From Candidatus Binatia bacterium (lineage in GTDB: Bacteria; Desulfobacterota; Binatia; UBA9968): a stretch of 64,000 bases of DNA. Below, one piece after another: positions 9,766-61,933 of this stretch (position 1 is its first letter; each line of letters starts with the position of its first letter). Both the position numbers and the translations under genes were made by a program. Location of the stretch: positions 868 through 64,867 of the forward strand of contig JBGPGE010000001.1 in assembly GCA_041483675.1 (NCBI GenBank), written 5' to 3'. Below the pieces are notes generated by a model that did no database searches, was not told the DNA's origin, and was given only the letters and a program-made list of their open reading frames with translations.

Positions 9766-10470
9766 TCAGGCCCCCGCCCTCTCTATCGCATAGTCGCGCT
9801 TGAGCAATAGGGCGAGCACGTCGTCGGGCTCGCGGTGCGCGTCGATAAATCCCCTGACGGCGTCCAGCTCCGCGGCGCTGAAGTGCGGGCTCAATTTCTG
9901 CATCAAGACATCCACCATAGGCGGCTCCAGCCAGCCGTACTCCAGAGAGGCGTCGGCATAGTCGTAGCCGACGACCTTGATGGCCTCCGGGTTCAGGTCG
10001 CCGACCAGGTCGTTGAACACTTCGATGAACAGATCGGTTTTCTCATCGGCCGTTCTCTCAGAGGCAACGGCACGCAGACGCTGCTTCATTTCCTTGCGCA
10101 GCCTCGCTTCCTGGATCGCCACCGCCACCCGGTAGGGCTTGAGCCGCCCGCGGATCAGCTCGAATTCGAGCGGCTCCGCGATCGTTTTGCGAAAGCGCCG
10201 GATAACGAAGGATTCCCGGCCGTTGGTCGCTTCAACGTAGCCGACCCGCATGGGATCGCCGGCGGCGCCGACCGGAAAACATTTTTCCCCGACCTCGGTC
10301 AGGGCCTCGAGCGGATGGCCGGTGTGGCGCTCGAGGAAAGCGCGGCCGTCGTCGCGGGAAAGCTGCCGCTCTTCCCCACCCTCCATGACGTAGGCCGGCG
10401 CGCCGTCGAACCGGGTGATGTGATGGAGTTTGTCGCACTCGCGGCAGCGGATGTATCTTTGCTCGGCCAT
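9766..10470 (-). CDS. Hypothetical protein with an N-terminal CxxC motif, embedded in the signalling operon
   Basis: 234 aa ORF co-oriented between the REC-HK hybrid and REC genes. I recognise no known family. Confidence 0.45.
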   Translation of the reverse strand: MAEQRYIRCRECDKLHHITRFDGAPAYVMEGGEERQLSRDDGRAFLERHTGHPLEALTEVGEKCFPVGAAGDPMRVGYVEATNGRESFVIRRFRKTIAEPLEFELIRGRLKPYRVAVAIQEARLRKEMKQRLRAVASERTADEKTDLFIEVFNDLVGDLNPEAIKVVGYDYADASLEYGWLEPPMVDVLMQKLSPHFSAAELDAVRGFIDAHREPDDVLALLLKRDYAIERAGA

Positions 10471-10479
10471 ACGCCACTC

Positions 10480-11592
10480 CTAAAATCGATGCGACGAAAT
10501 GCGGCTCAGCTCCGGCAACGCGCGCGACGGCAGGCTGAGCAACACCTCGGTGCCGACCCCGCGCTCGCTCTTCAACTTCAATGAGCCGCCGAGAAACTCT
10601 GTCAATCGCCGCGCCGCCGTCAGTCCCAGCCCCAACCCGGCAAACTCCCGGCGCATCGAGCCATCCAACTGCTGAAAAGGCTGGAACAGGCGGTCGATCT
10701 GGTCTTCGGGTATCCCCACGCCGGTGTCCCGGATTTCTATTTCAACCATCCCTTTCTGCGGAACTGTCCGGACTTTGATCGTCACTTTGCCCGCAGGCGT
10801 GAATTTGATCGCGTTGTGCAGCAGGTTCTGCACGATGCGCCCCGTCTTGTTGGGATCGCCGAGGATCATGATCCGGTCCTGCGGCCCTTCGATCGCGAGC
10901 CCCATCCCTTTTTCGTCCGCGAGCTTCTCATAGCGCCGCGCGCACTCCCTGAGCAAGAGGCAGATGTCGAATTCCTCCTCGGTGACGATCAACTCGCCGC
11001 TGTTGAGCGAGGTGATGATCAGCACGTTGTCGATCAGCTCGAGCAGCTCGCCGGAATTTTTGTAGACCTTTTCCAACACCTTGCGCTGGCCGTCGTTCAC
11101 GTCGCCGACCAGTTGATCGAGTAGGATCGACACGAAGCCGATCACCACGCTGAGCGGGGTGCGCAACTCGTGCGAGATATTCGCCATGAACTCCGACCGG
11201 ACGTTGCGCAGTTGCAGCCTGGCGATGCGGCGCTGCAAGGCGCGGCGGATCAACGCCAGGATATGGTTCACGTCGAACGGCTTGGAGATGTAGTCGAAGG
11301 CGCCGAGCCTGAGCCCTTCCACGGCGGTGTCCATCGATCCGTAGCCGGTGATGATGATTGCTTCGATGTCGGGGTCCTGCTCCTTGATCTTTTGCAGTAC
11401 CTTGGTGCCGGGAAGTCCCGGCATCTTGAGATCGACGGTGACGAGATCGACCGGCACTTCGCCGACCAGCCGGATCGCCTCGCTGCCCCGGTCGGTCGCG
11501 AAAACGTTGTAGTAGGGCTTGAGAATCATCTTGAGCGATTCTCTCGGCCCGAGCTCATCATCGACGATCAGTATGTTGGCTCTATCGTCCAT
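10480..11592 (-). CDS. Hybrid REC-histidine kinase (REC + HisKA + HATPase_c)
   Basis: N-terminal REC (ILIVDDELG ... LVTVDLKMPG ... KPF), H-box SHELRTPLSV, and G boxes (GTGVGIP ... GLGLGL). Confidence 0.85.
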   Translation of the reverse strand: MDDRANILIVDDELGPRESLKMILKPYYNVFATDRGSEAIRLVGEVPVDLVTVDLKMPGLPGTKVLQKIKEQDPDIEAIIITGYGSMDTAVEGLRLGAFDYISKPFDVNHILALIRRALQRRIARLQLRNVRSEFMANISHELRTPLSVVIGFVSILLDQLVGDVNDGQRKVLEKVYKNSGELLELIDNVLIITSLNSGELIVTEEEFDICLLLRECARRYEKLADEKGMGLAIEGPQDRIMILGDPNKTGRIVQNLLHNAIKFTPAGKVTIKVRTVPQKGMVEIEIRDTGVGIPEDQIDRLFQPFQQLDGSMRREFAGLGLGLTAARRLTEFLGGSLKLKSERGVGTEVLLSLPSRALPELSRISSHRF

Positions 11593-11637
11593 CGTGTCCG
11601 TCCGTAGCTGTAGGCTTAAGTTAGTCGGATGAGTCTA

Positions 11638-11654
11638 AAGCAACTCACATGCCA
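11638..11654 (-). promoter_or_regulatory. Candidate sigma-54 (-24/-12) promoter TGGCAT-N5-TTGCT upstream of the REC-HK gene
   Basis: The minus strand reads TGGCATGTGAGTTGCTT with correct GG/GC spacing, ~45 nt upstream of the ATG at 11592. An NtrC-type activator gene lies immediately upstream. Confidence 0.5.
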
Positions 11655-11836
11655 CCGGGAGGGTGGACGTAAGTCGCTGGAATTACAGGAGTTTAATTTT
11701 AAGACGACGAAGCGGGAGGAGACTGCTTAAACGGCTTTTCGAAGCCGCCCAACCGCAACATATGGGTGGCCGACCGGCGCCCAGCCACCATATGCCGGCC
11801 TGACGTGGGGAATTGCGAGGGCCACAGGACTGGCCA

Positions 11837-13243
11837 TCAGCTGGACACTTTTGCGCACTCGATTAACTCGGTATCCTCGGCAATCTGTAATTTTTCCATG
11901 CGATACCGTAGTACTCTTCTGCTGGTGCCGAGCAGAAAGGACGCTTTGGTCTGGTTGAATCCGGTCTTTTGGAGCGCCTTTAAGATCAACTCCCGCTCGA
12001 ACTCATCGACCGCGTCGCCGAGCGGACGCGCCCCTTCGAGCACCGCTTCTTTGAACGCGGGGCGGCTCTCGCCCCGGCGGATCTCCTCGGGAAGATCGTC
12101 CAGCCCGATCGCCTCGTGGCAGATCAATATCGTCAGCCGCTCGATCAGATTTTCCAGCTCTCGCACGTTGCCCGGCCACGAGTAGCCGAGCAGCTTGTCC
12201 ACCACCTCGGCCGACAGCCGCCGCTCGGCGACGGCGTTCTCGCCCGCCTTGACCGTCAAAAAGTGATGCAGCAGCAGCGGGATATCTTCTCTCCGCTCGC
12301 GCAGCGGCGGCAGCGGGATCGACACCACGTTTAAGCGATAAAATAAGTCGGCGCGGAAGCCGCCGTCCCTGGCCAGCTTCTCCAGCTCGCGGTTGCTCGC
12401 GGCGACGATCCGCACGTCCACTTTGTTCTCCTCCGTGCCGCCCAGCCGGTTGAAGGTCTCGGTCTCGATCGCCCGCAGGAGCTTCGACTGCACCGACAAT
12501 CCCATCTCCCCGATCTCGTCGAGGAACAGCGTGCCGCCGTGGGCGCTCTCGAAGTGGCCGATCTTTCTTTGGTAGGCGTTGGTGAACGCGCCTTTCTCAT
12601 AGCCGAACAGCTCGCTCTCGATCAGGTTGTCGGGCAGCGCGGCGCAGTTGACCACGACGAACGGCTTGCTGCGCCGCTCGCTGCCGAAGTGGATCGCGCG
12701 GGCGATCAGCTCCTTGCCCGTCCCGCTCTCGCCGGTGATCAGCACGGTGCTTTTGCGCTTCGCCACTAGGCTGACGGTCTTGAAGACCTCCATCATAGCC
12801 TTGGATTTTCCGACGATGTTCTCGATGCCGTATTTCCGCCCCACCTCTTCTTGCAGCCGCTCCAGCTCCCGGGAAAGACGGCTCCTTTCCAGCGCCCGCT
12901 CCACTCTGAGGCGCAGCTCGTCCACGTCGAACGGCTTGGTCACGTAGTCGAACGCCCCCGTCTCCTTGGCGGAAAAGGCGGTGCGCGCGGTGTTGAGCGC
13001 CGTCAGCATAATGACCTGCCCTTCGGGATGGGCCGCCCTCACCTGCTTGAGGGTTTCGAGGCCGTCCGTCCCCGGCATCATGATGTCGAGCAGGATCACC
13101 TCCGGCGTCTCCTCCTTGACCTTGCGGAGCGCCTCTTCGCCCGACCGGGCCTCGTGCACCCGCAGGCTCTTGCCGAAAATCAGGCGAATCGACTCGCGAA
13201 CCCCCGTCTCATCGTCCACAACTAAAAGCGATGCTTGTTTCAT
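11837..13243 (-). CDS. Sigma-54-dependent response regulator (NtrC/AtoC family: REC + AAA+ EBP + Fis-type HTH)
   Basis: REC, Walker A GESGTGKE, ESELFGYEKGAFT (GAFTGA-like), and a C-terminal HTH. Confidence 0.9.
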   Translation of the reverse strand: MKQASLLVVDDETGVRESIRLIFGKSLRVHEARSGEEALRKVKEETPEVILLDIMMPGTDGLETLKQVRAAHPEGQVIMLTALNTARTAFSAKETGAFDYVTKPFDVDELRLRVERALERSRLSRELERLQEEVGRKYGIENIVGKSKAMMEVFKTVSLVAKRKSTVLITGESGTGKELIARAIHFGSERRSKPFVVVNCAALPDNLIESELFGYEKGAFTNAYQRKIGHFESAHGGTLFLDEIGEMGLSVQSKLLRAIETETFNRLGGTEENKVDVRIVAASNRELEKLARDGGFRADLFYRLNVVSIPLPPLRERREDIPLLLHHFLTVKAGENAVAERRLSAEVVDKLLGYSWPGNVRELENLIERLTILICHEAIGLDDLPEEIRRGESRPAFKEAVLEGARPLGDAVDEFERELILKALQKTGFNQTKASFLLGTSRRVLRYRMEKLQIAEDTELIECAKVSS

Positions 13244-13259
13244 AGTGATCGGAACCCCC

Positions 13260-15110
13260 TTATAAAGCAGGCAACTCGGCGCGCAGCTGGACCGTCTCTC
13301 CGTCCGGGTAGCTGACGCGCAAGCCGCCGCCGTTTCGTTCGAGCAGAATCTTGGCGAGCAGGACGCGCAGCGGCAGCGCCTCCTCCCCGCCCTGCGCCGC
13401 CGTCAAGCCGAGATAGCGCGTGAGCGAGCTGATGCCGGCGGCCTCGCGGAGATACGAGATCACCACGGCGCCGCCGTTTTCCACTTTGACCTGGATCGAA
13501 TTTTTCGATTTCGCCTGGCTCAGGATCGCCAGAAATAGATTTTTGAAAGCAAAGAGAAAATGGGCTTTGTCGGCGAGGACCGCCATCGTCCGCCCCCGCT
13601 TGCCCCACTCGACGTTCTTGTCGTCCTTCACGGAATCCGGCAAGAGATCGTCGTGGATCCGGGAGAGCTGCTCGTAGAGATAGATCCGCTCCTTGGCCGG
13701 CTGGTTGAAGCGCGCGAATTCGAGCAGGGCCTCCAGCAGATCGTCCATCCGTTGAACGTCGTTGCTCACCGTCTCCTGGAAGCGGGAGCGGAAAGCGGCG
13801 TCGTCGAACCGGTCGCCGAGCAGTTGGGAGAAGGTCTTGATCGTGACCATCGGATTTTTAAGCTCGTGCGCCAGCTCGGTCATGAACAGGCGGAGGTCCG
13901 GCGGCTCGCCGTTGGCCGTCCGCGCGGCGGCGCTTCCGTTCTGCTGGGTCGCCGAACTGGACGTCTGATTTTCTTCAGCGGGCGGAGTGTCGCGGCGCGC
14001 TTCCGCAGAGGCGCCGGCGGAAATCGGCGCGCGCTCGGAGGTGAATTCAAAGATTAGATCCGGCGCGTCGAGCAGCTCTTTCCTGTGCGTCGCGAAGCTT
14101 CGGGCGACGACCGCCTCCAGCTCATCGAGATTGCCGAACCACAGATAGTTGCGCAGCCGGTCCACCGCCGCGGGAGAAAAAACCGCACGGTTCAAGCCCA
14201 GCCGCGCGCCGCATTCCCCGGCCAGCGCAGCCGCCAGGGCGGCGATATCGGCCTGCCGCTCCCGGAGCGGCTGAAGGCGGAGCACCAGCGCCGCCAGCCG
14301 GTAGTAGAGCGGATCGAGAAACGTCCCGCGGTAAACGCTCTCCAGCAAATCCGCGTGCGCGCTGGAGATGAGTTGGAGAGTTCTTCCCTCAGCCTCGCTC
14401 TCGCCCAAAAAGTCGATGAGGCCCGACTGAGCCGTGAGGCTCATGCGCTCGACACCGTAAAGAAACAAAGTCAACCGCGCCCCCGCCGGGCGTTCTTCGA
14501 CTCGCGCCTTGAGGTAGCCCTTCCCGATCTCCGGCGCATGGATAAACAGCGGCGTGCCGGCCTCCGAATTCAGCCGGTGGATCGCCCGCGCCACCCGCTC
14601 CTGCCCGCAGCCGGCCTCGCCGAGGATCAGCAGCGGAAACGGCGCCGCGGCGAACTTCTTGACCAGCGTCGCGACGGACTCTGGCACGTAGGGATACTCA
14701 AGACGAGAAAGGTCCGCGGCGCACGCGGGGACGACCGTCGACGGTTTCGCCGGCTGAGCGGCGGCTTGCGCCAATAGCCGCGCCACTTTTTCTCTCAGCT
14801 CGTAGGGATTGAACGGCTTGGCCAGGAGGTCGACATGCTTCGCGCCGGGATCGAACGGCGCGGTGGGCCGGGAGTCCGCCAGGAACAGCACGGGACAGGA
14901 GAACCGCGCGGCGACACGCGCGAGCGCCGCCGGCTCGGAGGCGGCCGTGCCGCCGACCGCCAGAATCATCAGGTCGATCTCCGTGCCGGAAATACCGGCG
15001 CTTCCGCTCTCCAGCGAGGCGCCGTGCGAGACCGCAAAATCGGGCCCGAGAATGAGCGCGACGGTCTCTCGCACGGCGGCGGACGGATCAATGACTCGAA
15101 TACGCTTCAT
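13260..15110 (-). CDS. Atypical signalling protein: REC-like domain, degenerate sigma-54-activator-like AAA domain and HK-like DHp/CA domains
   Basis: 616 aa. N-terminal receiver-like segment with KPF. The Walker-A-like GEAGCGQE is degenerate and GAFTGA is absent. An H-box-like HELKNPMVTIKTF is followed by a poorly conserved CA region. The gene overlaps the upstream HK gene by 23 nt. Confidence 0.65.
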   Translation of the reverse strand: MKRIRVIDPSAAVRETVALILGPDFAVSHGASLESGSAGISGTEIDLMILAVGGTAASEPAALARVAARFSCPVLFLADSRPTAPFDPGAKHVDLLAKPFNPYELREKVARLLAQAAAQPAKPSTVVPACAADLSRLEYPYVPESVATLVKKFAAAPFPLLILGEAGCGQERVARAIHRLNSEAGTPLFIHAPEIGKGYLKARVEERPAGARLTLFLYGVERMSLTAQSGLIDFLGESEAEGRTLQLISSAHADLLESVYRGTFLDPLYYRLAALVLRLQPLRERQADIAALAAALAGECGARLGLNRAVFSPAAVDRLRNYLWFGNLDELEAVVARSFATHRKELLDAPDLIFEFTSERAPISAGASAEARRDTPPAEENQTSSSATQQNGSAAARTANGEPPDLRLFMTELAHELKNPMVTIKTFSQLLGDRFDDAAFRSRFQETVSNDVQRMDDLLEALLEFARFNQPAKERIYLYEQLSRIHDDLLPDSVKDDKNVEWGKRGRTMAVLADKAHFLFAFKNLFLAILSQAKSKNSIQVKVENGGAVVISYLREAAGISSLTRYLGLTAAQGGEEALPLRVLLAKILLERNGGGLRVSYPDGETVQLRAELPAL

Positions 15111-17241
15111 GGACTTGAGGGCGATACTTGGCTCCCGATTGCGCGACGTATTTCAACGGCAGATTGATGAAGAACGCGGTCCCCCGACCGACCCCGCTCT
15201 CGACCAGGATATGGCCGCCGTGTTCCTTGACGATCTGGTGCGAGATGGAAAGGCCCAGCCCGTTCCCGTCTTTTTTCGTCGTGAAAAACGGATTAAAGAT
15301 GTTTTCGAGGTCCTTTTCCGGAATGCCGACGCCGGAATCCCGCACCTCGATTTGCACAAATTGCTCGTGGCCGTTCACCGGGGAGAGATGCGTGGCGATC
15401 TCAACCACGCCACCGCCTTCGATGGATTGAATGGCGTTTAGAATGAGATTCATGCAGACCTGCTTGGTCTGCTCTTTGTCAACGAAGATCTTGGGCAGGC
15501 CGGAAGCGAGGCGGAGCGCGATCCGCACGTCCTTGTCCTTCGCTTCGGTGTCCAGGAGGCGCGCGATGTTGTCGACGATGTCATTGATATTCTCGGCGGT
15601 CACGTTGGGCGTCGAAGGACGGGCGAAGCTCAGCAGGTCGGTGACCAAGCCGCAGATGCGGTCCACTTCCTTCAACGCCAGGCTCTGGAAGCTGTCGCGA
15701 AAATCTTTGTCCTCGTACCGTTCCGGCAGGAGCTGGGTGAAAGTCCGGATCGCCACCAGCGGGTTGCGGATCTCGTGGGCCAAGCCGGCCGTCAACATGC
15801 CGAGCGAGGAGAGCCGGTCCGCCCGGCGGATGATGTTCTGCGACTGTTTTAGATTTTCGTAGAGCCGGGCGTTGTCGATCGCGATCGCCGCCTGGTTGGC
15901 GAGCGTGGAGAGCACCTCGATATCCTCGTAAGAGTACATCGCGTTGCCCTCGCGGTGGCCGAGGTTGAGCATCCCGATGAGGCGGTCTTTGGTGAGGAGC
16001 GGCAGAGTCACCTCGGCCTCAAGCTGCGCCATCTTGGCCGACGCTTCCAGGGTCTCGCGGCCGTCGCGCAGCATCTCCAGCTCCTCCCGGATGATCGCCT
16101 CGCGCCGCTTGACGAGCGTCCGCACCAGGGGGTCGTCCTGCGCCACCACGGGCTGCTGCGACGGCTCGTACTTCAGGCCGACGTTGCTCTTGATCCGAAA
16201 CGAGCCGTTGCTTTCCTCCAGGAGAAACAGCGAGGCCTTCTCGATCTCCAGCGCCTTCACCACCGTCTGCACCAGGTTCTGGCACACGGCTTCCAGATCG
16301 ACCATGGAGATCATCTCCCTGCTGGAGCGGAGCAGAGTCTCGCGGTAGTCGTAATGCTTTTTGAACAGCACGCGCTCGAAGGCCTCCTCCGTGCGGAACC
16401 GCACCTTCGGGAAAAAGAAGCCGACGAGGATGAATAACGCCAGGGCGACGAGCGAAAATCCCGCGCTGACCTCCCCGAAAAAGAGCATCTGCGTCCCGAC
16501 GAGGACGAGATGACATGGAATGAGAAGCGCCAGCAGCAGGCAGGCGTAGATCAGGCTGCGCTTGATGACGACGTCGATGTCGAGGAGGCGGTACTGGATG
16601 ATCGCGTAAGCGATGATCCCCGCATGGATATTGGTAAAAATAAAACCGATCGGGTAAAGCTCGACGCCGTAATTCATCAGGAAGTCGAGCCCGGCGAGCG
16701 AGTAGATGATCGTGGATATGTACACATAGGTTACCTGGTTGACCCGCCCAGGCTGACCGGACAGATCGCGCCGGTGGGCAACAAGGAAGGCCAGCCCCGC
16801 GATCAGCAACGCGACCAGGAACACGAGGTACACGGGGTGGAGCACCCCGGCTTGCGGGTAATAGCCCCAGTAACCGCGGTAGACTCCCGCTACGAATGCG
16901 TCGCCGGTCCAGGTGGCGACCAGGAAGGCCGCGCCGACGCCGTACGACAGGTAGGCGACGATCCGCTTTCGGACGCTGTTCGTGAACTCGACGACGAAGT
17001 GAAAGAATGCGATGGGAATAAATATGATGCCGGAATATCCGAGGCGGGTCACGGTGTCGGCCGCGTGCGGATTCTGCAAGTTGAAGAGGACCGTCCAGTT
17101 TCCCTGCCAGTAAGCCGTGAGAAAACACCATAACGCAAAAGTGCGGCTGAGCGACGAGCGCGGATTTCTGAGCAAAACGAAGAATCCGAGACCGGAGGCA
17201 AGAAGGGCCGTGAGCAGTGAAGGGATAGAGTAAAGATTCAT
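15088..17241 (-). CDS. Membrane sensor histidine kinase with N-terminal 7TM sensor domain, GAF, HisKA and HATPase_c
   Basis: Seven predicted TM helices in the first ~280 aa, H-box AHEIRNPLVAI, and N/G boxes. Confidence 0.85.
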   Translation of the reverse strand: MNLYSIPSLLTALLASGLGFFVLLRNPRSSLSRTFALWCFLTAYWQGNWTVLFNLQNPHAADTVTRLGYSGIIFIPIAFFHFVVEFTNSVRKRIVAYLSYGVGAAFLVATWTGDAFVAGVYRGYWGYYPQAGVLHPVYLVFLVALLIAGLAFLVAHRRDLSGQPGRVNQVTYVYISTIIYSLAGLDFLMNYGVELYPIGFIFTNIHAGIIAYAIIQYRLLDIDVVIKRSLIYACLLLALLIPCHLVLVGTQMLFFGEVSAGFSLVALALFILVGFFFPKVRFRTEEAFERVLFKKHYDYRETLLRSSREMISMVDLEAVCQNLVQTVVKALEIEKASLFLLEESNGSFRIKSNVGLKYEPSQQPVVAQDDPLVRTLVKRREAIIREELEMLRDGRETLEASAKMAQLEAEVTLPLLTKDRLIGMLNLGHREGNAMYSYEDIEVLSTLANQAAIAIDNARLYENLKQSQNIIRRADRLSSLGMLTAGLAHEIRNPLVAIRTFTQLLPERYEDKDFRDSFQSLALKEVDRICGLVTDLLSFARPSTPNVTAENINDIVDNIARLLDTEAKDKDVRIALRLASGLPKIFVDKEQTKQVCMNLILNAIQSIEGGGVVEIATHLSPVNGHEQFVQIEVRDSGVGIPEKDLENIFNPFFTTKKDGNGLGLSISHQIVKEHGGHILVESGVGRGTAFFINLPLKYVAQSGAKYRPQVHEAYSSH

Positions 17242-37254: not shown

Positions 37255-39399
37255 TCAGGGCTGCTCGCTTATTGAATCGGCAACTGCGGAAGAAACTTTA
37301 GTCTCTGCGAGGAGTTTTTCGTAAAGCCCGGTGATCTGCTTATGATCCAGGCCGTCGTCCTGCCAGTATTGCTGGACGTCGGGCCAGAGGCTGCCGATCC
37401 ACTTGACGTAGAACCGCAGCCGGTCCGACTCCTCGCGCTCCGGCTCGGCGCCCGGAGCGACCAGAACGCTCTCCGGCGTGTAAACGGTCTTCCATCCGGC
37501 GGCTTCGGCCTGCAAACAGAAGTCGATGTCGTGCAGGCCGGCGGTATAGCCTTCGTCGATACCGCCTAGGGCGAGAAAGAGCTCCCGGCACGCGAGCAGA
37601 CAACCGCTGACCGCCCGCATCGCCCGCCGCTTGGCGGCGCCGGGTAGAGAGGCCGGAAGGAGTTGATAGAGAGACGAGGGGCTGAAGTTCATATCGAAAG
37701 CGATGCCGGCATGGTGGATCATCCCCTGAGGGTCGATGATCTTTCCGCCCACGATGCCGGTCGCCGGATCTCGTTCCATCTCCTCGACCAGGGCCTCCAG
37801 CCATCCGGGCTGCGGAATCAGACCGGGGGGCAGGATGCAAAGATAGCGCCCCCTGGCCTCCCTCGCGGCAAGATTCAAGAGCGTCGCGATCGACGTCGAA
37901 GAAGACGGGATCGAACGGACATCCCCCTGGACAAAGTCCTGAAGAGCCCGGCTCTCGTCGCCGGCCCCTGCCAAAAGACATTCGTAAGAGATGTCGGCAG
38001 ACGTGTGCTGCGCGACCCCGATGAGGCTCTCCGCCACGCCTTCCATCGAGGTAAAGGGAATGACGATCGAGCAAAGGAATTCTTCGCCTCCCGGTTTCTT
38101 GGCTGACGGGACGTGCGACGAGTTGCGCCTGGCGGCCGGCGCCCGCTTGTTGACCTCCTCCCGCGTCTCGAGCATCTGTTGGATCAGGTCGAGCGTCCTC
38201 TCCATGTTTTCACCGCCAAGCGAATGGAGATTGCGAACCAGATATTGCTCTACCTTCTCTCTCCGCTCTTGCGAAACTCCCTTTTGCAGGATCGACTCCG
38301 CCACTTCCGGCAGGTCCGGCAAGTCGCCGGCCTGATCGGCGACGCCGAGCGAGGTAAACGAGTAATGTTGTCCCGGAACGCGGATCTCCACCAGCGGCTT
38401 GCCGAAGGCCAGTGCCTCCAGACCCGCGGTCGAATTGCCGAACACCGCGCAAACGTCGCTGACCGCCAGGAGCCGGTAGGTGTCGTCCTGCTGGAGCGAA
38501 CGAATGTTGCGAAAGCCGGCGAGCCTCTCGCCGATCTGGTCGATGATCCGTTTGTTGTTGAAGGGATGCCACTTGAAGATCAGGGTCAGGTCCTTCCTGC
38601 GGCGGGCCCAATCGAGCAACGGTTTGGGAAACTCAAAGTCGCTGCCATAACCGAGACCGCCCATCAGGACGGTGACCACGCGCGTTTTGTGGTCGAGCTT
38701 CAGCCGCCGCCGGGTCTGTTTCATCGCCTCCGGCTCCGTCGCCTCGCGTATCGCCGCCGGCAGGTGGGTATTCCCCACCAGATAGATTTTATCCGCCGAG
38801 CTGCCCGAGCGGACCAGCACTTCGCGCGCGGACTCTCCCCACGCGAAGCAGGCGGTCGAGTACTCCGTGTGATAGCGGTAGACTCCCGTGGGTCCCCAGT
38901 AGAGCCCTTCCTGAAGGGTGATGAAAGGAATTCGCAACTCGTTACAGAGATAGCCGAGCATCTTTCCCCAGCTGTTGAGCTCGTGCAGGGCCAGAACCAG
39001 ATCGGGCTTCTCGACCTCGAACATCCGCCGCAGGAGATAGAAATTCTCGAGATGCATGCGCAGCGCTTTGTCCTGGATGGAAAGAGTGAAGTGGTGGAGG
39101 ATGTCGTTCTCCAGGAATCTCTCCTTCCACTGACCCCTCACTTCCCGGTAGGCCCGCTCGATCTCATCGGCGACCTCCGGTGTCAGATAAGAGAACGTAT
39201 GATGGTAAGGCAAACCCTCATCCAGCATCGTGATCTCGAACGGGCTTTCCGCCTGGGCCGTGGGATAGAGGACTTCCATGCCCCGGGCCGCCAGCGCGCG
39301 CGTGATCGGGAAGAGGAAACGGCCGTGATGCTTGAGCGCGATGAAGCAGAACGCCTTCTTGCCTTTAAGATCCATAATGAGCGGCCTCCGGTTTGGCAT
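37255..39399 (-). CDS. Two-domain glycosyltransferase: N-terminal GT-B-like (TagF/capsule-synthesis-like) domain fused to a C-terminal GT2 (GT-A) domain. Candidate flagellin glycosyltransferase
   Basis: 714 aa. The N-terminal half has GT-B-like motifs (TVLMGGLGYG ... FKWHP ... GNSTAGLEALAFGKP). The C-terminal ~260 aa has a GT2 pattern (CSIVIPFTS ... DES ... CLLACRELF ... GGIDEGY). It is the first gene upstream of the flagellins. Confidence 0.65.
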   Translation of the reverse strand: MPNRRPLIMDLKGKKAFCFIALKHHGRFLFPITRALAARGMEVLYPTAQAESPFEITMLDEGLPYHHTFSYLTPEVADEIERAYREVRGQWKERFLENDILHHFTLSIQDKALRMHLENFYLLRRMFEVEKPDLVLALHELNSWGKMLGYLCNELRIPFITLQEGLYWGPTGVYRYHTEYSTACFAWGESAREVLVRSGSSADKIYLVGNTHLPAAIREATEPEAMKQTRRRLKLDHKTRVVTVLMGGLGYGSDFEFPKPLLDWARRRKDLTLIFKWHPFNNKRIIDQIGERLAGFRNIRSLQQDDTYRLLAVSDVCAVFGNSTAGLEALAFGKPLVEIRVPGQHYSFTSLGVADQAGDLPDLPEVAESILQKGVSQERREKVEQYLVRNLHSLGGENMERTLDLIQQMLETREEVNKRAPAARRNSSHVPSAKKPGGEEFLCSIVIPFTSMEGVAESLIGVAQHTSADISYECLLAGAGDESRALQDFVQGDVRSIPSSSTSIATLLNLAAREARGRYLCILPPGLIPQPGWLEALVEEMERDPATGIVGGKIIDPQGMIHHAGIAFDMNFSPSSLYQLLPASLPGAAKRRAMRAVSGCLLACRELFLALGGIDEGYTAGLHDIDFCLQAEAAGWKTVYTPESVLVAPGAEPEREESDRLRFYVKWIGSLWPDVQQYWQDDGLDHKQITGLYEKLLAETKVSSAVADSISEQP

Positions 39400-40582: not shown

Positions 40583-40752
40583 CCGTTAAGGCCTCCTGCG
40601 GCAGAACTCGGCTTGAACCGGAAGAAGCAATTAACATGCCCGGCAAAAGGGGAAAATTTTGCCGCCTGAAAAACATTTTTTCGCAGTCTGAATCCTTACT
40701 TAAGACTCTCCGCGAGAAACCGATTAGAAGCTTGAAGCAAGGAGTATTTGCC

Positions 40753-61890: not shown

Positions 61891-61933
61891 TGCCCCAACG
61901 CATGAAGCAAGATGCAGGCCACGCAAAGAACAA

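What the first reader, a model, noticed from the sequence alone, without database searches (positions are those of the whole stretch)
11638..11654. Good sigma-54 promoter match directly downstream of the NtrC-type activator gene, driving the REC-HK/hypothetical/REC operon
The minus strand reads TGGCATGTGAGTTGCTT (consensus TGGCAC-N5-TTGCW) about 45 nt upstream of the ATG at 11592. The adjacent upstream gene encodes a sigma-54 enhancer-binding response regulator. This suggests a feed-forward cascade in which the EBP activates transcription of a second kinase/regulator set. A weaker sigma-54-like element (33601-33618) precedes the cheY-like/fliC1 operon. fliC2 has a classical sigma-28 promoter (37075-37101). 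So the two flagellin copies appear to sit under different sigma factors, as in Campylobacter/Helicobacter flaB (sigma-54) versus flaA (sigma-28).
Basis: partly seen in the sequence, partly recalled or inferred. Interest (0 to 1): 0.5.

Follow-up and report, generated by a model that had tools for sequence, protein, structure and literature searches.

The report
Conserved sigma-54 promoter for a signalling operon
The flagged 16-base motif is very probably a genuine sigma-54 promoter, kept intact across many uncultured Binatia-type bacteria, that switches on a second set of signalling genes next to its likely activator; this is a solid but ordinary kind of bacterial gene control.

Summary
The motif is there. 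The minus strand at 11654-11639 reads TGGCATGTGAGTTGCT, 46 nt before the ATG of the REC-histidine-kinase gene. It is the only exact TGGCAY-N5-TTGCW match in 64 kb (0.06 expected) and the top hit of a heuristic sigma-54 matrix.

The decisive evidence is comparative. In eight independent orthologous loci (window, L005-L011; REC-HK 59-70% identical), plus near-identical L002 and L004, gene order is conserved: sensor kinase, pseudo-EBP/HisKA protein, REC-AAA+-HTH activator, spacer, REC-HK. Each spacer carries TGGCA[CT]-N5-TTGCT while the rest of the spacer has diverged.

The adjacent activator is intact, with a conserved GAFTNA loop variant. It is the most likely activator, but this is inferred from synteny only.

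The flagellin side-claims also hold, with one correction. fliC2 carries two tandem sigma-28 sites. This split is conserved in relatives with about 70% identical flagellins.

Verdict: a real feature and a new member of a known kind, of modest interest. The most unusual item nearby is the conserved ATPase-dead pseudo-EBP fused to a HisKA domain.

The parts
11639..11654 (-). Sigma-54 (-24/-12) promoter element TGGCATGTGAGTTGCT. The predicted transcription start is near 11628 (inferred as 12 nt after the -12 C).
   Evidence: Conserved as TGGCA[CT]-N5-TTGCT in L002 and L004-L011.
10480..11592 (-). First gene of the driven operon: a REC-HisKA-HATPase hybrid kinase of 370 aa. It has the receiver Asp in VDLKMPG and the H-box SHELRTPL.
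   Evidence: Pfam and translation. More than 100 orthologs at 57-94% identity, from Binatia and 'Deltaproteobacteria' MAGs.
9766..10470 (-). Second gene: a 234-aa protein of an uncharacterised family. It is present at this position in only some lineages.
   Evidence: No Pfam or NCBIfam hit. A 39% identical homolog sits at the same position in L011. The exhaustive search found 192 representative clusters at E<=1e-3. It is absent from L005-L010.
9358..9732 (-). Third gene: a single-domain receiver (REC) of 124 aa, the probable phosphorylation partner of the REC-HK.
   Evidence: Pfam. A REC gene follows the REC-HK in L002, L005, L006, L007 and L009.
9276..9320 (-). Strong G+C-rich hairpin (CCCTCACCCTCGCCCTCTCCC...GGGAGAGGGTAGGGGTGAGGG) after the REC gene. 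It is the likely end of the operon, lying between convergent genes.
   Evidence: Sequence. It produced spurious miRNA-hairpin hits in Rfam. The terminator scan did not call it because there is no T-run.
11837..13243 (-). NtrC-type enhancer-binding response regulator (REC + sigma-54 AAA+ + HTH_8, 468 aa), the putative activator. It has Walker A GESGTGK and an L1 loop reading GAFTNA.
11824..11853 (-). Candidate enhancer (UAS): a conserved block with partial dyad symmetry, CAAAAGTGTCCAGCTGATGGCCAGTCCTGT (TGTCCA-N5-TGGCCA), spanning the activator's stop codon about 185 bp upstream of the promoter.
   Evidence: In L010 the same block (TTTGTCCAGTCGATGGACA, with perfect 6-bp arms) lies entirely after the stop codon. 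Spacing varies between loci and L007 lacks the right half, so the assignment is tentative.
11669..11686 (-). Conserved upstream box GTAATTCCAGCGACTTAC (GTAAyTyCA-N4-GyTTAC), 14 nt upstream of TGGCA. Its role is unknown; it could be an IHF-like bending site or a proximal activator site.
   Evidence: It sits at the same distance in the window, L002, L004, L005, L007 and L008, and further upstream in L006 and L009.
13260..15110 (-). Pseudo-EBP/HisKA protein of 616 aa. It has a receiver-like N-terminus, a sigma-54-type AAA+ domain with Walker A Lys->Gln (GCGQE) and no GAFTGA, a HisKA H-box (ELAHELKNPM) and a degenerate C-terminus. It is a conserved member of the upstream operon.
15088..17241 (-). 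Sensor histidine kinase (7TM-GAF-HisKA-HATPase, 717 aa), the probable cognate kinase of the activator.
   Evidence: In orthologous loci it is either this type or an sCache/HAMP kinase.
32987..33002 (-). Sigma-54 site TGGCATAGATTCTGCT, 29 nt before the fliC1 ATG.
   Evidence: 14.3 bits, second best in the window. Conserved 28 nt before the ATG in L017 and L048.
33602..33617 (-). Sigma-54 site TGGCATCGTTCGTGCT, 114 nt before the cheY-like gene.
   Evidence: Conserved in L017 (TGGCACCGATCGTGCTT) and L048 (TGGCATTCAAACTGCTT).
37075..37101 (-). Proximal sigma-28 promoter TAAAGTTT-N11-GGCGATAA, 105 nt before the fliC2 ATG.
37274..37300 (-). Distal sigma-28-like promoter TAAAGTTT-N11-GCCGATTC, inside the 3' end of the upstream 714-aa gene.
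   Evidence: A tandem proximal plus distal pair is found in L012, L013, L014, L015 and L018.
40626..40641 (-). Sigma-54 site GGGCATGTTAATTGCT, 44 nt before a 405-aa gene that precedes the 714-aa glycosyltransferase-like gene.
   Evidence: Conserved in L015 and L018, together with a GCGGCAAAATTTTCCC box just upstream.

Best explanation
The element at 11654-11639 (minus strand) is a functional sigma-54 (-24/-12) promoter. Transcription should start near 11628 and run through the REC-histidine-kinase gene, the 234-aa gene and the single-domain receiver gene, ending at the hairpin at 9320-9276. Sigma-54 holoenzyme cannot open DNA unaided, so the promoter should stay silent until an enhancer-binding ATPase acts on it. 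The most likely activator is the NtrC-type response regulator encoded immediately upstream (11837-13243). It would be phosphorylated by the 7TM-GAF sensor kinase of its own operon, and would bind upstream DNA (candidate site 11853-11824, spanning its own stop codon). The result is a two-tier cascade: a signal sensed by the first two-component system causes synthesis of a second kinase/receiver pair. What is shown: the motif, its statistical rarity, its position, its conservation in orthologous loci, and the intact activator domains. What is inferred: the transcription start, the identity of the activator, the binding site, phosphotransfer partners and the operon end.
For: - The consensus match is exact and unique in the window, with 0.06 expected.
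- It is the best matrix score in the window at 18.4 bits, above all 50 shuffles.
- The top three matrix sites in the window all lie in intergenic DNA, on the right strand, 29-47 nt before a start codon. The chance of that placement is about 1e-5.
- Gene order (sensor HK, pseudo-EBP/HisKA, EBP, spacer, REC-HK) is conserved in eight orthologous loci. Every spacer contains TGGCA[CT]-N5-TTGCT at 17.7-18.4 bits, while the N5 and the flanks vary. The chance per spacer is about 1e-4.
- There is no sigma-70-like promoter in 9200-12000 and no Rfam element in the spacer.
- The EBP has REC, Sigma54_activat (235 bits), AAA_lid and HTH_8 domains, plus Walker A GESGTGK.
- Its L1 loop reads GAFTNA and is conserved in the orthologs. 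Fifth-position variants GAFTDA and GAFTHA occur in Desulfovibrio vulgaris EBPs that are assigned target operons (PMC4641369).
- In the same D. vulgaris table, many EBPs are assigned targets whose locus tags adjoin the EBP gene.
Against: - There is no transcript data, and the organism is uncultured.
- rpoN is not in the window and could not be searched for in the genome.
- GAFTNA itself is not among the variants listed as functional.
- The candidate enhancer is only partly symmetric, varies in spacing between loci, and its left half overlaps coding sequence.
- In L006 and L009 the motif ends only 13-15 nt before the annotated ATG, which implies nearly leaderless mRNAs or mis-called starts.
- The weight matrix was written from memory of published compilations and is heuristic.
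- Other EBPs exist in these genomes. L007 has a second one just downstream.
Confidence: 0.72

Rival explanations
1. The promoter is a real sigma-54 promoter, but it is activated in trans by a different enhancer-binding protein. The adjacent EBP controls other targets.
For: These genomes encode several EBPs. One example is the REC-less EBP just downstream of the operon in L007. The flagellar sigma-54 sites in the window must have an activator that is not identified here. The candidate enhancer is not cleanly defined.
Against: EBP-promoter adjacency is invariant across all loci even though the sensor kinase type and the downstream neighbours change. The upstream boxes of this promoter differ from the GGGAA-N5-TTCCC boxes of the flagellar sigma-54 sites.
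Confidence: 0.15
2. REC-HK is transcribed mainly by read-through from the upstream sensor-kinase/EBP operon. The sigma-54 site is then only a minor internal boost promoter, giving positive-feedback amplification rather than a switch.
For: All six genes lie on one strand. No canonical intrinsic terminator is called between the EBP and REC-HK genes on the minus strand. The fold of the spacer RNA is no more stable than shuffled sequence (z = -0.7).
Against: The spacer is 133-244 nt long in every locus and contains hairpins after the EBP stop codon in several loci. Strict conservation of a near-consensus -24/-12 element argues that it carries the main regulatory load.
Confidence: 0.1
3. The motif is a chance match, or the conserved bases serve another purpose such as a different DNA-binding protein or an RNA element.
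For: At 2 mismatches the consensus is no more frequent than in shuffled sequence.
Against: The conservation pattern is exactly that of sigma-54. TGGCA and TTGCT are invariant, are spaced identically, and have a freely varying N5, across ten loci. The chance per locus is about 1e-4. There is no Rfam hit.
Confidence: 0.02

Closest known systems
Sigma-54 promoters beside the gene of their own NtrC-family activator, for example the many EBP/target pairs mapped in Desulfovibrio vulgaris Hildenborough (PMC4641369), and classical atoSC-atoDAEB or zraSR-zraP
   Same: A two-component EBP gene sits next to a near-consensus -24/-12 promoter that drives the neighbouring operon. The enhancer is expected within about 200 bp upstream. 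Variation at position 5 of the GAFTGA loop is tolerated.
   Different: The driven operon encodes no enzymes or transporters. It encodes a second signalling pair (REC-HK plus a stand-alone REC), so the output is another phosphorelay tier. The EBP scores below the curated cut-offs for AtoC, NtrC, PrsR and ZraR, so it belongs to none of those named orthologous groups. The upstream operon carries an extra pseudo-EBP/HisKA gene.
Campylobacter jejuni / Helicobacter pylori flagellar hierarchy: flaB and glycosylation genes under RpoN with FlgS/FlgR; flaA, the filament cap and chaperones under FliA (review PMC3930126)
   Same: There are two flagellin paralogs (85% identical here). The copy linked to fliD-fliS-fliT has sigma-28 promoters. 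The other copy has a sigma-54 promoter. A sigma-54 site also precedes glycosyltransferase-like genes in the flagellin glycosylation island.
   Different: The phylum is unrelated (Binatia-type MAGs). The sigma-54 flagellin here is linked to a cheY-like gene, a second fliS and motAB. The sigma-28 promoters are tandem. No FlgS/FlgR-type pair was identified in the window, and nothing has been tested experimentally.
PrsK/PrsR (PEP-CTERM/XrtA system: a multi-TM GAF histidine kinase plus a sigma-54 response regulator)
   Same: A 7TM-GAF histidine kinase is paired with a REC-AAA+-HTH EBP. Both give partial hits to TIGR02916 and TIGR02915.
   Different: Both scores fall well below the curated cut-offs (159 against 300 bits, and 395 against 503 bits). 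No PEP-CTERM, XrtA or EPS genes are nearby. In half of the orthologous loci the kinase is replaced by an sCache/HAMP type.

Membership tests
Sigma-54 (RpoN) -24/-12 promoter | GG and GC dinucleotides exactly 10 bp apart within TGGCAC-N5-TTGCW | tested here: met
   TGGCATGTGAGTTGCT matches 10 of the 11 specified bases, with one C->T change that is common in compilations. It is the only such match in the window.
Sigma-54 (RpoN) -24/-12 promoter | Located in non-coding DNA upstream of a gene and co-oriented with it, with no need for -35/-10 hexamers | tested here: met
   It lies 46 nt before the ATG at 11592 inside a 244-nt spacer. There is no sigma-70-like site in 9200-12000.
Sigma-54 (RpoN) -24/-12 promoter | Conserved in orthologous upstream regions (phylogenetic footprint) | tested here: met
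   Ten of ten loci carry TGGCA[CT]-N5-TTGCT, with a variable N5 and variable flanks.
Sigma-54 (RpoN) -24/-12 promoter | An enhancer-binding AAA+ activator is available, and an rpoN gene is present in the genome | tested here: inconclusive
   An intact EBP is encoded next door. rpoN is not in the 64-kb window, and the rest of the genome could not be searched.
Sigma-54 (RpoN) -24/-12 promoter | Transcription start about 12 nt after the GC, and dependence on RpoN | not testable with these tools
   This needs 5' end mapping or in vitro transcription.
NtrC-family bacterial enhancer-binding protein | REC + Sigma54_activat AAA+ + Fis-type HTH architecture, with Walker A | tested here: met
   PF00072 scores 100 bits, PF00158 235 bits and PF02954 49 bits. 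GESGTGK is present.
NtrC-family bacterial enhancer-binding protein | GAFTGA sigma-54-contact loop | tested here: inconclusive
   The loop reads GAFTNA, is conserved in eight orthologs, and reads GAFTHA in L011. GAFTDA and GAFTHA are reported in D. vulgaris EBPs with assigned regulons (PMC4641369). GAFTNA itself is not documented there.
Named EBP orthologous groups (AtoC, NtrC, PrsR, ZraR, FlgR, FlbD) | Score above the NCBIfam curated cut-off | tested here: not met
   AtoC 490 against 714; NtrC 459 against 559; PrsR 395 against 503; ZraR 376 against 760; FlbD 342 against 750; FlgR 332 against 750.
Dual-sigma flagellin control (Campylobacter/Helicobacter/Vibrio type) | Two or more flagellin paralogs, one behind a sigma-28 promoter and another behind a sigma-54 promoter | tested here: met
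   fliC2 has TAAAGTTT-N11-GGCGATAA (15/16) plus a distal 14/16 site. fliC1 has TGGCAT-N5-CTGCT and no sigma-28 match of 12/16 or better. The split follows synteny in L012-L018 and L048.
Dual-sigma flagellin control (Campylobacter/Helicobacter/Vibrio type) | A dedicated flagellar EBP (FlgR, FlrC, FleQ or FlbD) and FliA/FlgM are present, and the expression dependence has been shown | not tested
   None of these genes lies in the window. Expression cannot be tested here.

The most novel reading that the evidence does not exclude
The conserved 616-aa protein encoded between the sensor kinase and the activator would be a new kind of controller of sigma-54 activation. It has a receiver-like N-terminus, an ATPase-dead sigma-54-type AAA+ domain (Walker A Lys->Gln, no GAFTGA), a HisKA phosphotransfer domain and a degenerate catalytic domain. 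It could poison or scaffold the activator's AAA+ ring. Alternatively it could shuttle or remove phosphate between the sensor kinase, the activator and the sigma-54-induced REC-HK. In either case it would gate the promoter at 11654-11639 and close a feedback loop with the operon that promoter drives.
Probability: 0.15. Interest if true: 0.6.

Novelty: new member of a known kind. Interest (0 to 1): 0.3.

Why it matters
It gives a well-supported regulatory annotation in an uncultured lineage (Binatia-type MAGs) where nothing is known about transcription control. That annotation covers a conserved five-to-six-gene signalling module whose second tier is sigma-54 dependent. It also includes a flagellar region in which sigma-54 and sigma-28 divide the two flagellins, the cap and chaperone genes, and the glycosylation genes, much as in epsilonproteobacteria. 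The mechanism itself is textbook, so the value is mainly in annotation and comparison. The module could be reconstituted in E. coli. The pseudo-EBP/HisKA protein is the one component that might teach something new.

Tried and rejected
- The bare consensus with 2 mismatches gave 24 hits against 20.9 expected, so it is not informative alone.
- The pattern TGGCAT-N6-TGCTT gave 3 hits against 0.02 expected. It was derived post hoc from those same three sites, so I used it as description only, not as a test.
- The terminator scan found no canonical terminator on the minus strand between the EBP and REC-HK genes or after the REC gene. The fold of the spacer RNA is not unusually stable. The CATATGGTGGC...GCCACCCATATG inverted repeat (about 11795-11760) is shared only with the 91%-identical relatives, so I did not interpret it.
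- The Rfam scan of 9200-12000 returned only sub-threshold chance hits.
- A 12-mer conservation scan of the spacer recovered only the block at the EBP stop codon. It cannot see gapped motifs. The dyad there is tentative because its spacing varies.
- PrsK/PrsR, AtoS/AtoC and NtrB/NtrC memberships were rejected on curated cut-offs.
- The 234-aa protein had no family hit. The word-index search found only relatives at 83% identity or above, whereas the exhaustive search found 192 clusters. An AlphaFold model from the shallow alignment was poor (pLDDT 52), so no fold search was run.
- A fifth sigma-54-like site at 61906-61921 lies too close to the likely start codon to interpret.
- One orthologous contig (for P0010) had no retrievable DNA.
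- Literature searches found nothing on sigma-54 or flagellar regulation in Binatia.

Full report
**1. The observation**

On the minus strand, 11654-11638 reads TGGCATGTGAGTTGCTT. GG and GC are exactly 10 bp apart. The only departure from TGGCAC-N5-TTGCW is the frequent C->T at the sixth base.

The motif lies in a 244-nt spacer. That spacer sits between the stop codon of a REC-AAA+-HTH gene (11837-13243) and the ATG (11592) of a REC-HisKA-HATPase gene. The motif ends 46 nt before that ATG.

Several measures show how rare the match is:
- TGGCAY-N5-TTGCW occurs once in the window on both strands, against 0.06 expected.
- A heuristic sigma-54 weight matrix gives 18.4 bits, the best site in the window. 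I wrote the weights from memory of published promoter compilations, so they are approximate. The best site in 50 shuffles averaged 14.4 bits, and none reached 18.4.
- With two mismatches allowed, the consensus is no commoner than chance (24 hits against 20.9). Match quality alone would therefore not settle the matter.

**2. Context**

The minus-strand gene row is as follows:
- a fabF-like gene;
- a 7TM-GAF histidine kinase (15088-17241);
- a 616-aa protein with a degenerate sigma-54 AAA+ domain fused to HisKA (13260-15110);
- the NtrC-type EBP (11837-13243);
- the spacer with the motif;
- the REC-HK (10480-11592);
- a 234-aa protein with no family hit (9766-10470);
- a single-domain receiver (9358-9732);
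- a strong hairpin (9320-9276), followed by a convergent ABC-transporter operon.

No sigma-70-like promoter is called anywhere in 9200-12000. No Rfam family matches the spacer.

**3. Comparative test**

The closest genome in GTDB is 'Deltaproteobacteria bacterium RIFCSPLOWO2_12_FULL_60_19', whose 234-aa protein is 91% identical. REC-HK relatives are named Candidatus Binatia or Deltaproteobacteria MAGs.

I fetched eight further loci, whose REC-HK is 59-70% identical in L005-L011 and about 94% in the near-identical L002. All keep the same order: sensor kinase, pseudo-EBP/HisKA, EBP, a spacer of 133-238 nt, then REC-HK. A REC gene usually follows.

Other parts of the locus vary. The sensor kinase is either the 7TM-GAF type or an sCache/HAMP type. 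The downstream neighbours differ from locus to locus. The 234-aa gene is present only in the window's close relatives and, at 39% identity, in L011.

In every spacer the best matrix site is TGGCA[CT]-N5-TTGCT, scoring 17.7-18.4 bits. The N5 and the surrounding sequence differ freely. L004 has the motif as well. The analytic chance of such a site in one 250-nt spacer on one strand is about 1e-4. Eight independent loci therefore exclude coincidence, and the pattern of invariant and free positions is the sigma-54 pattern. I conclude that the promoter is real.

One caveat remains. In L006 and L009 the motif ends 13-15 nt before the annotated ATG. This implies near-leaderless transcripts or mis-called start codons.

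**4. Who activates it**

The adjacent EBP has the following features:
- a receiver Asp, in ILLDIMMPG;
- Walker A GESGTGK;
- a full Sigma54_activat domain (235 bits);
- an HTH_8 domain.

Its sigma-54-contact loop reads GAFTNA rather than GAFTGA. The variant is conserved in eight orthologs, and L011 has GAFTHA. Fifth-position variants such as GAFTDA and GAFTHA occur in D. vulgaris EBPs with assigned sigma-54 regulons. In that organism many EBPs are assigned targets whose locus tags adjoin the EBP gene (PMC4641369).

Two conserved upstream blocks are candidate protein sites:
- The first is a partly dyad-symmetric block across the EBP stop codon (window 11853-11824, TGTCCA-N5-TGGCCA). In L010 it lies wholly in non-coding DNA with perfect arms.
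- The second is a GTAAyTyCA-N4-GyTTAC box, 14 nt upstream of TGGCA in six loci.

Neither block is well enough defined to call. I therefore hold the activator assignment at about 0.7, on synteny and domain integrity. The promoter itself I hold at about 0.95.

**5. Mechanism proposed**

The proposed sequence of events is:
- a signal is sensed by the sensor kinase;
- the kinase phosphorylates the EBP;
- the EBP forms its ATPase ring at the enhancer;
- the ring opens the sigma-54 closed complex at 11654-11639;
- the REC-HK, the optional 234-aa protein and the stand-alone REC are synthesised.

This is a second phosphotransfer tier made only when the first is active. 'Cascade' is supported. 'Feed-forward' would additionally need the first tier to act directly on the second-tier proteins, and that is untested.

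**6. The flagellin side-claims**

The window holds two flagellins that are 85% identical, in two gene groups:
- fliC2 (36103-36969) is followed by fliD, fliS and fliT.
- fliC1 (32086-32958) is preceded by a cheY-like gene and followed by a second fliS and motAB.

fliC2 has TAAAGTTT-N11-GGCGATAA (15/16 matches, 105 nt before the ATG) and a second site (14/16, 304 nt before the ATG). These are the only two hits of 13/16 or better in the window.

fliC1 has no sigma-28 match. It does have TGGCATAGATTCTGCT 29 nt before its ATG, the second-best sigma-54 site in the window.

A metagenome scan recovered relatives with 68-71% identical flagellins:
- Copies in the fliD-linked position (L013, L014, L015, L018, and also L012) carry tandem sigma-28 sites.
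- Copies in the cheY/mot-linked position (L017, L048) carry TGGCAY-N5-xTGCT 28 nt before the ATG.
- Both L017 and L048 also keep a sigma-54 site before the cheY-like gene.

A further sigma-54 site (40626-40641) precedes a 405-aa gene and a 714-aa glycosyltransferase-like gene in the flagellin-glycosylation island. It is conserved in L015 and L018.

The top three matrix sites in the window are all intergenic, correctly oriented and 29-47 nt before a start codon. The chance of that placement is about 1e-5.

The partition is therefore:
- under sigma-54: one flagellin and glycosylation-type genes;
- under sigma-28: the other flagellin, the cap and the chaperones.

This mirrors the partition reviewed for H. 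pylori and C. jejuni (PMC3930126).

**7. Comparison and novelty**

An EBP gene next to its sigma-54 target, and flagellin paralogs split between RpoN and FliA, are both established themes. The EBP falls below the curated cut-offs of every named group, so it is an unnamed NtrC-family member. The finding is a new member of a known kind, in an uncultured phylum.

The least ordinary component is the pseudo-EBP/HisKA protein. It has Walker A Lys->Gln, no GAFTGA, and a conserved H-box. More than 100 full-length relatives exist, and all carry only generic names. Its role is unknown.

**8. Verdict**

fliC1 has its own sigma-54 promoter, and 'feed-forward' overstates what is shown. Interest is modest at 0.3.

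Noticed in passing
window 13260-15110 (-); orthologs in L005-L011: A 616-aa protein with a receiver-like N-terminus, an ATPase-dead sigma-54-type AAA+ domain (Walker A GCGQE, Lys->Gln; no GAFTGA), a HisKA domain with a conserved H-box (ELAHELKNPM) and a degenerate C-terminus. It always lies between the sensor kinase and the EBP. More than 100 full-length relatives (42-87% identical) exist in Binatia-type MAGs, with generic names only.
   Followed up: partly
window 32987-33002 (-): fliC1 has its own sigma-54 site (TGGCATAGATTCTGCT) 29 nt before its ATG.
   Followed up: yes
window 40626-40641 (-) and 40649-40663 (-): A sigma-54 site (GGGCATGTTAATTGCT) lies 44 nt before a 405-aa gene with no family, followed by a 714-aa glycosyltransferase-like gene. 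A conserved GGCAAAATTTTCCCC box sits 8 nt upstream of the site. Both are conserved in L015 and L018.
   Followed up: partly
window 37274-37300 (-): A second, distal sigma-28-like promoter (TAAAGTTT-N11-GCCGATTC) lies inside the 3' end of the gene upstream of fliC2. Tandem proximal and distal sigma-28 sites recur in L012-L015 and L018.
   Followed up: yes
window 33694-33708 (-) and 33082-33096 (-); L017, L048: A palindromic box GGGAA-N5-TTCCC (GGGAAATAAATTCCC / GGAAACAAATTCC) lies about 80-90 nt upstream of both the cheY-like and the fliC1 sigma-54 sites. It is also present in L017 and L048, and is a candidate enhancer for an unidentified flagellar EBP.
   Followed up: partly
window 9766-10470 (-): The 234-aa protein has an N-terminal CxxC...HxxH-like region. 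It belongs to an uncharacterised family (192 representative clusters, no Pfam or NCBIfam model). It is inserted between REC-HK and REC in only some lineages. The AlphaFold model was poor.
   Followed up: partly
window 37255-62000 (-): A large island lies upstream of fliC2. It encodes NeuB-like synthase, two cytidylyltransferases, aminotransferase, dehydratase, asparagine-synthase-like, methyltransferase, FkbH-like and GNAT proteins. It looks like a nonulosonic-acid flagellin glycosylation island.
   Followed up: no
window 61906-61921 (-): A sigma-54-like TGGCCTGCATCTTGCT lies between the HDOD-GAF kinase gene and a cytidylyltransferase gene. It is only about 17 nt before the likely ATG, so its function is doubtful.
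   Followed up: no
L012 (Ga0315281_10323693): A flagellin 96% identical to fliC1 sits in the fliC2-type position, after the 714-aa gene and behind sigma-28 sites. It is followed by a fliS that is only 44% identical. This suggests recombination or gene conversion between the flagellin copies.
   Followed up: no
L006 and L009, upstream of the REC-HK gene: The sigma-54 motif ends only 13-15 nt before the annotated ATG. This implies nearly leaderless REC-HK mRNAs in these lineages, or mis-called start codons.
   Followed up: no
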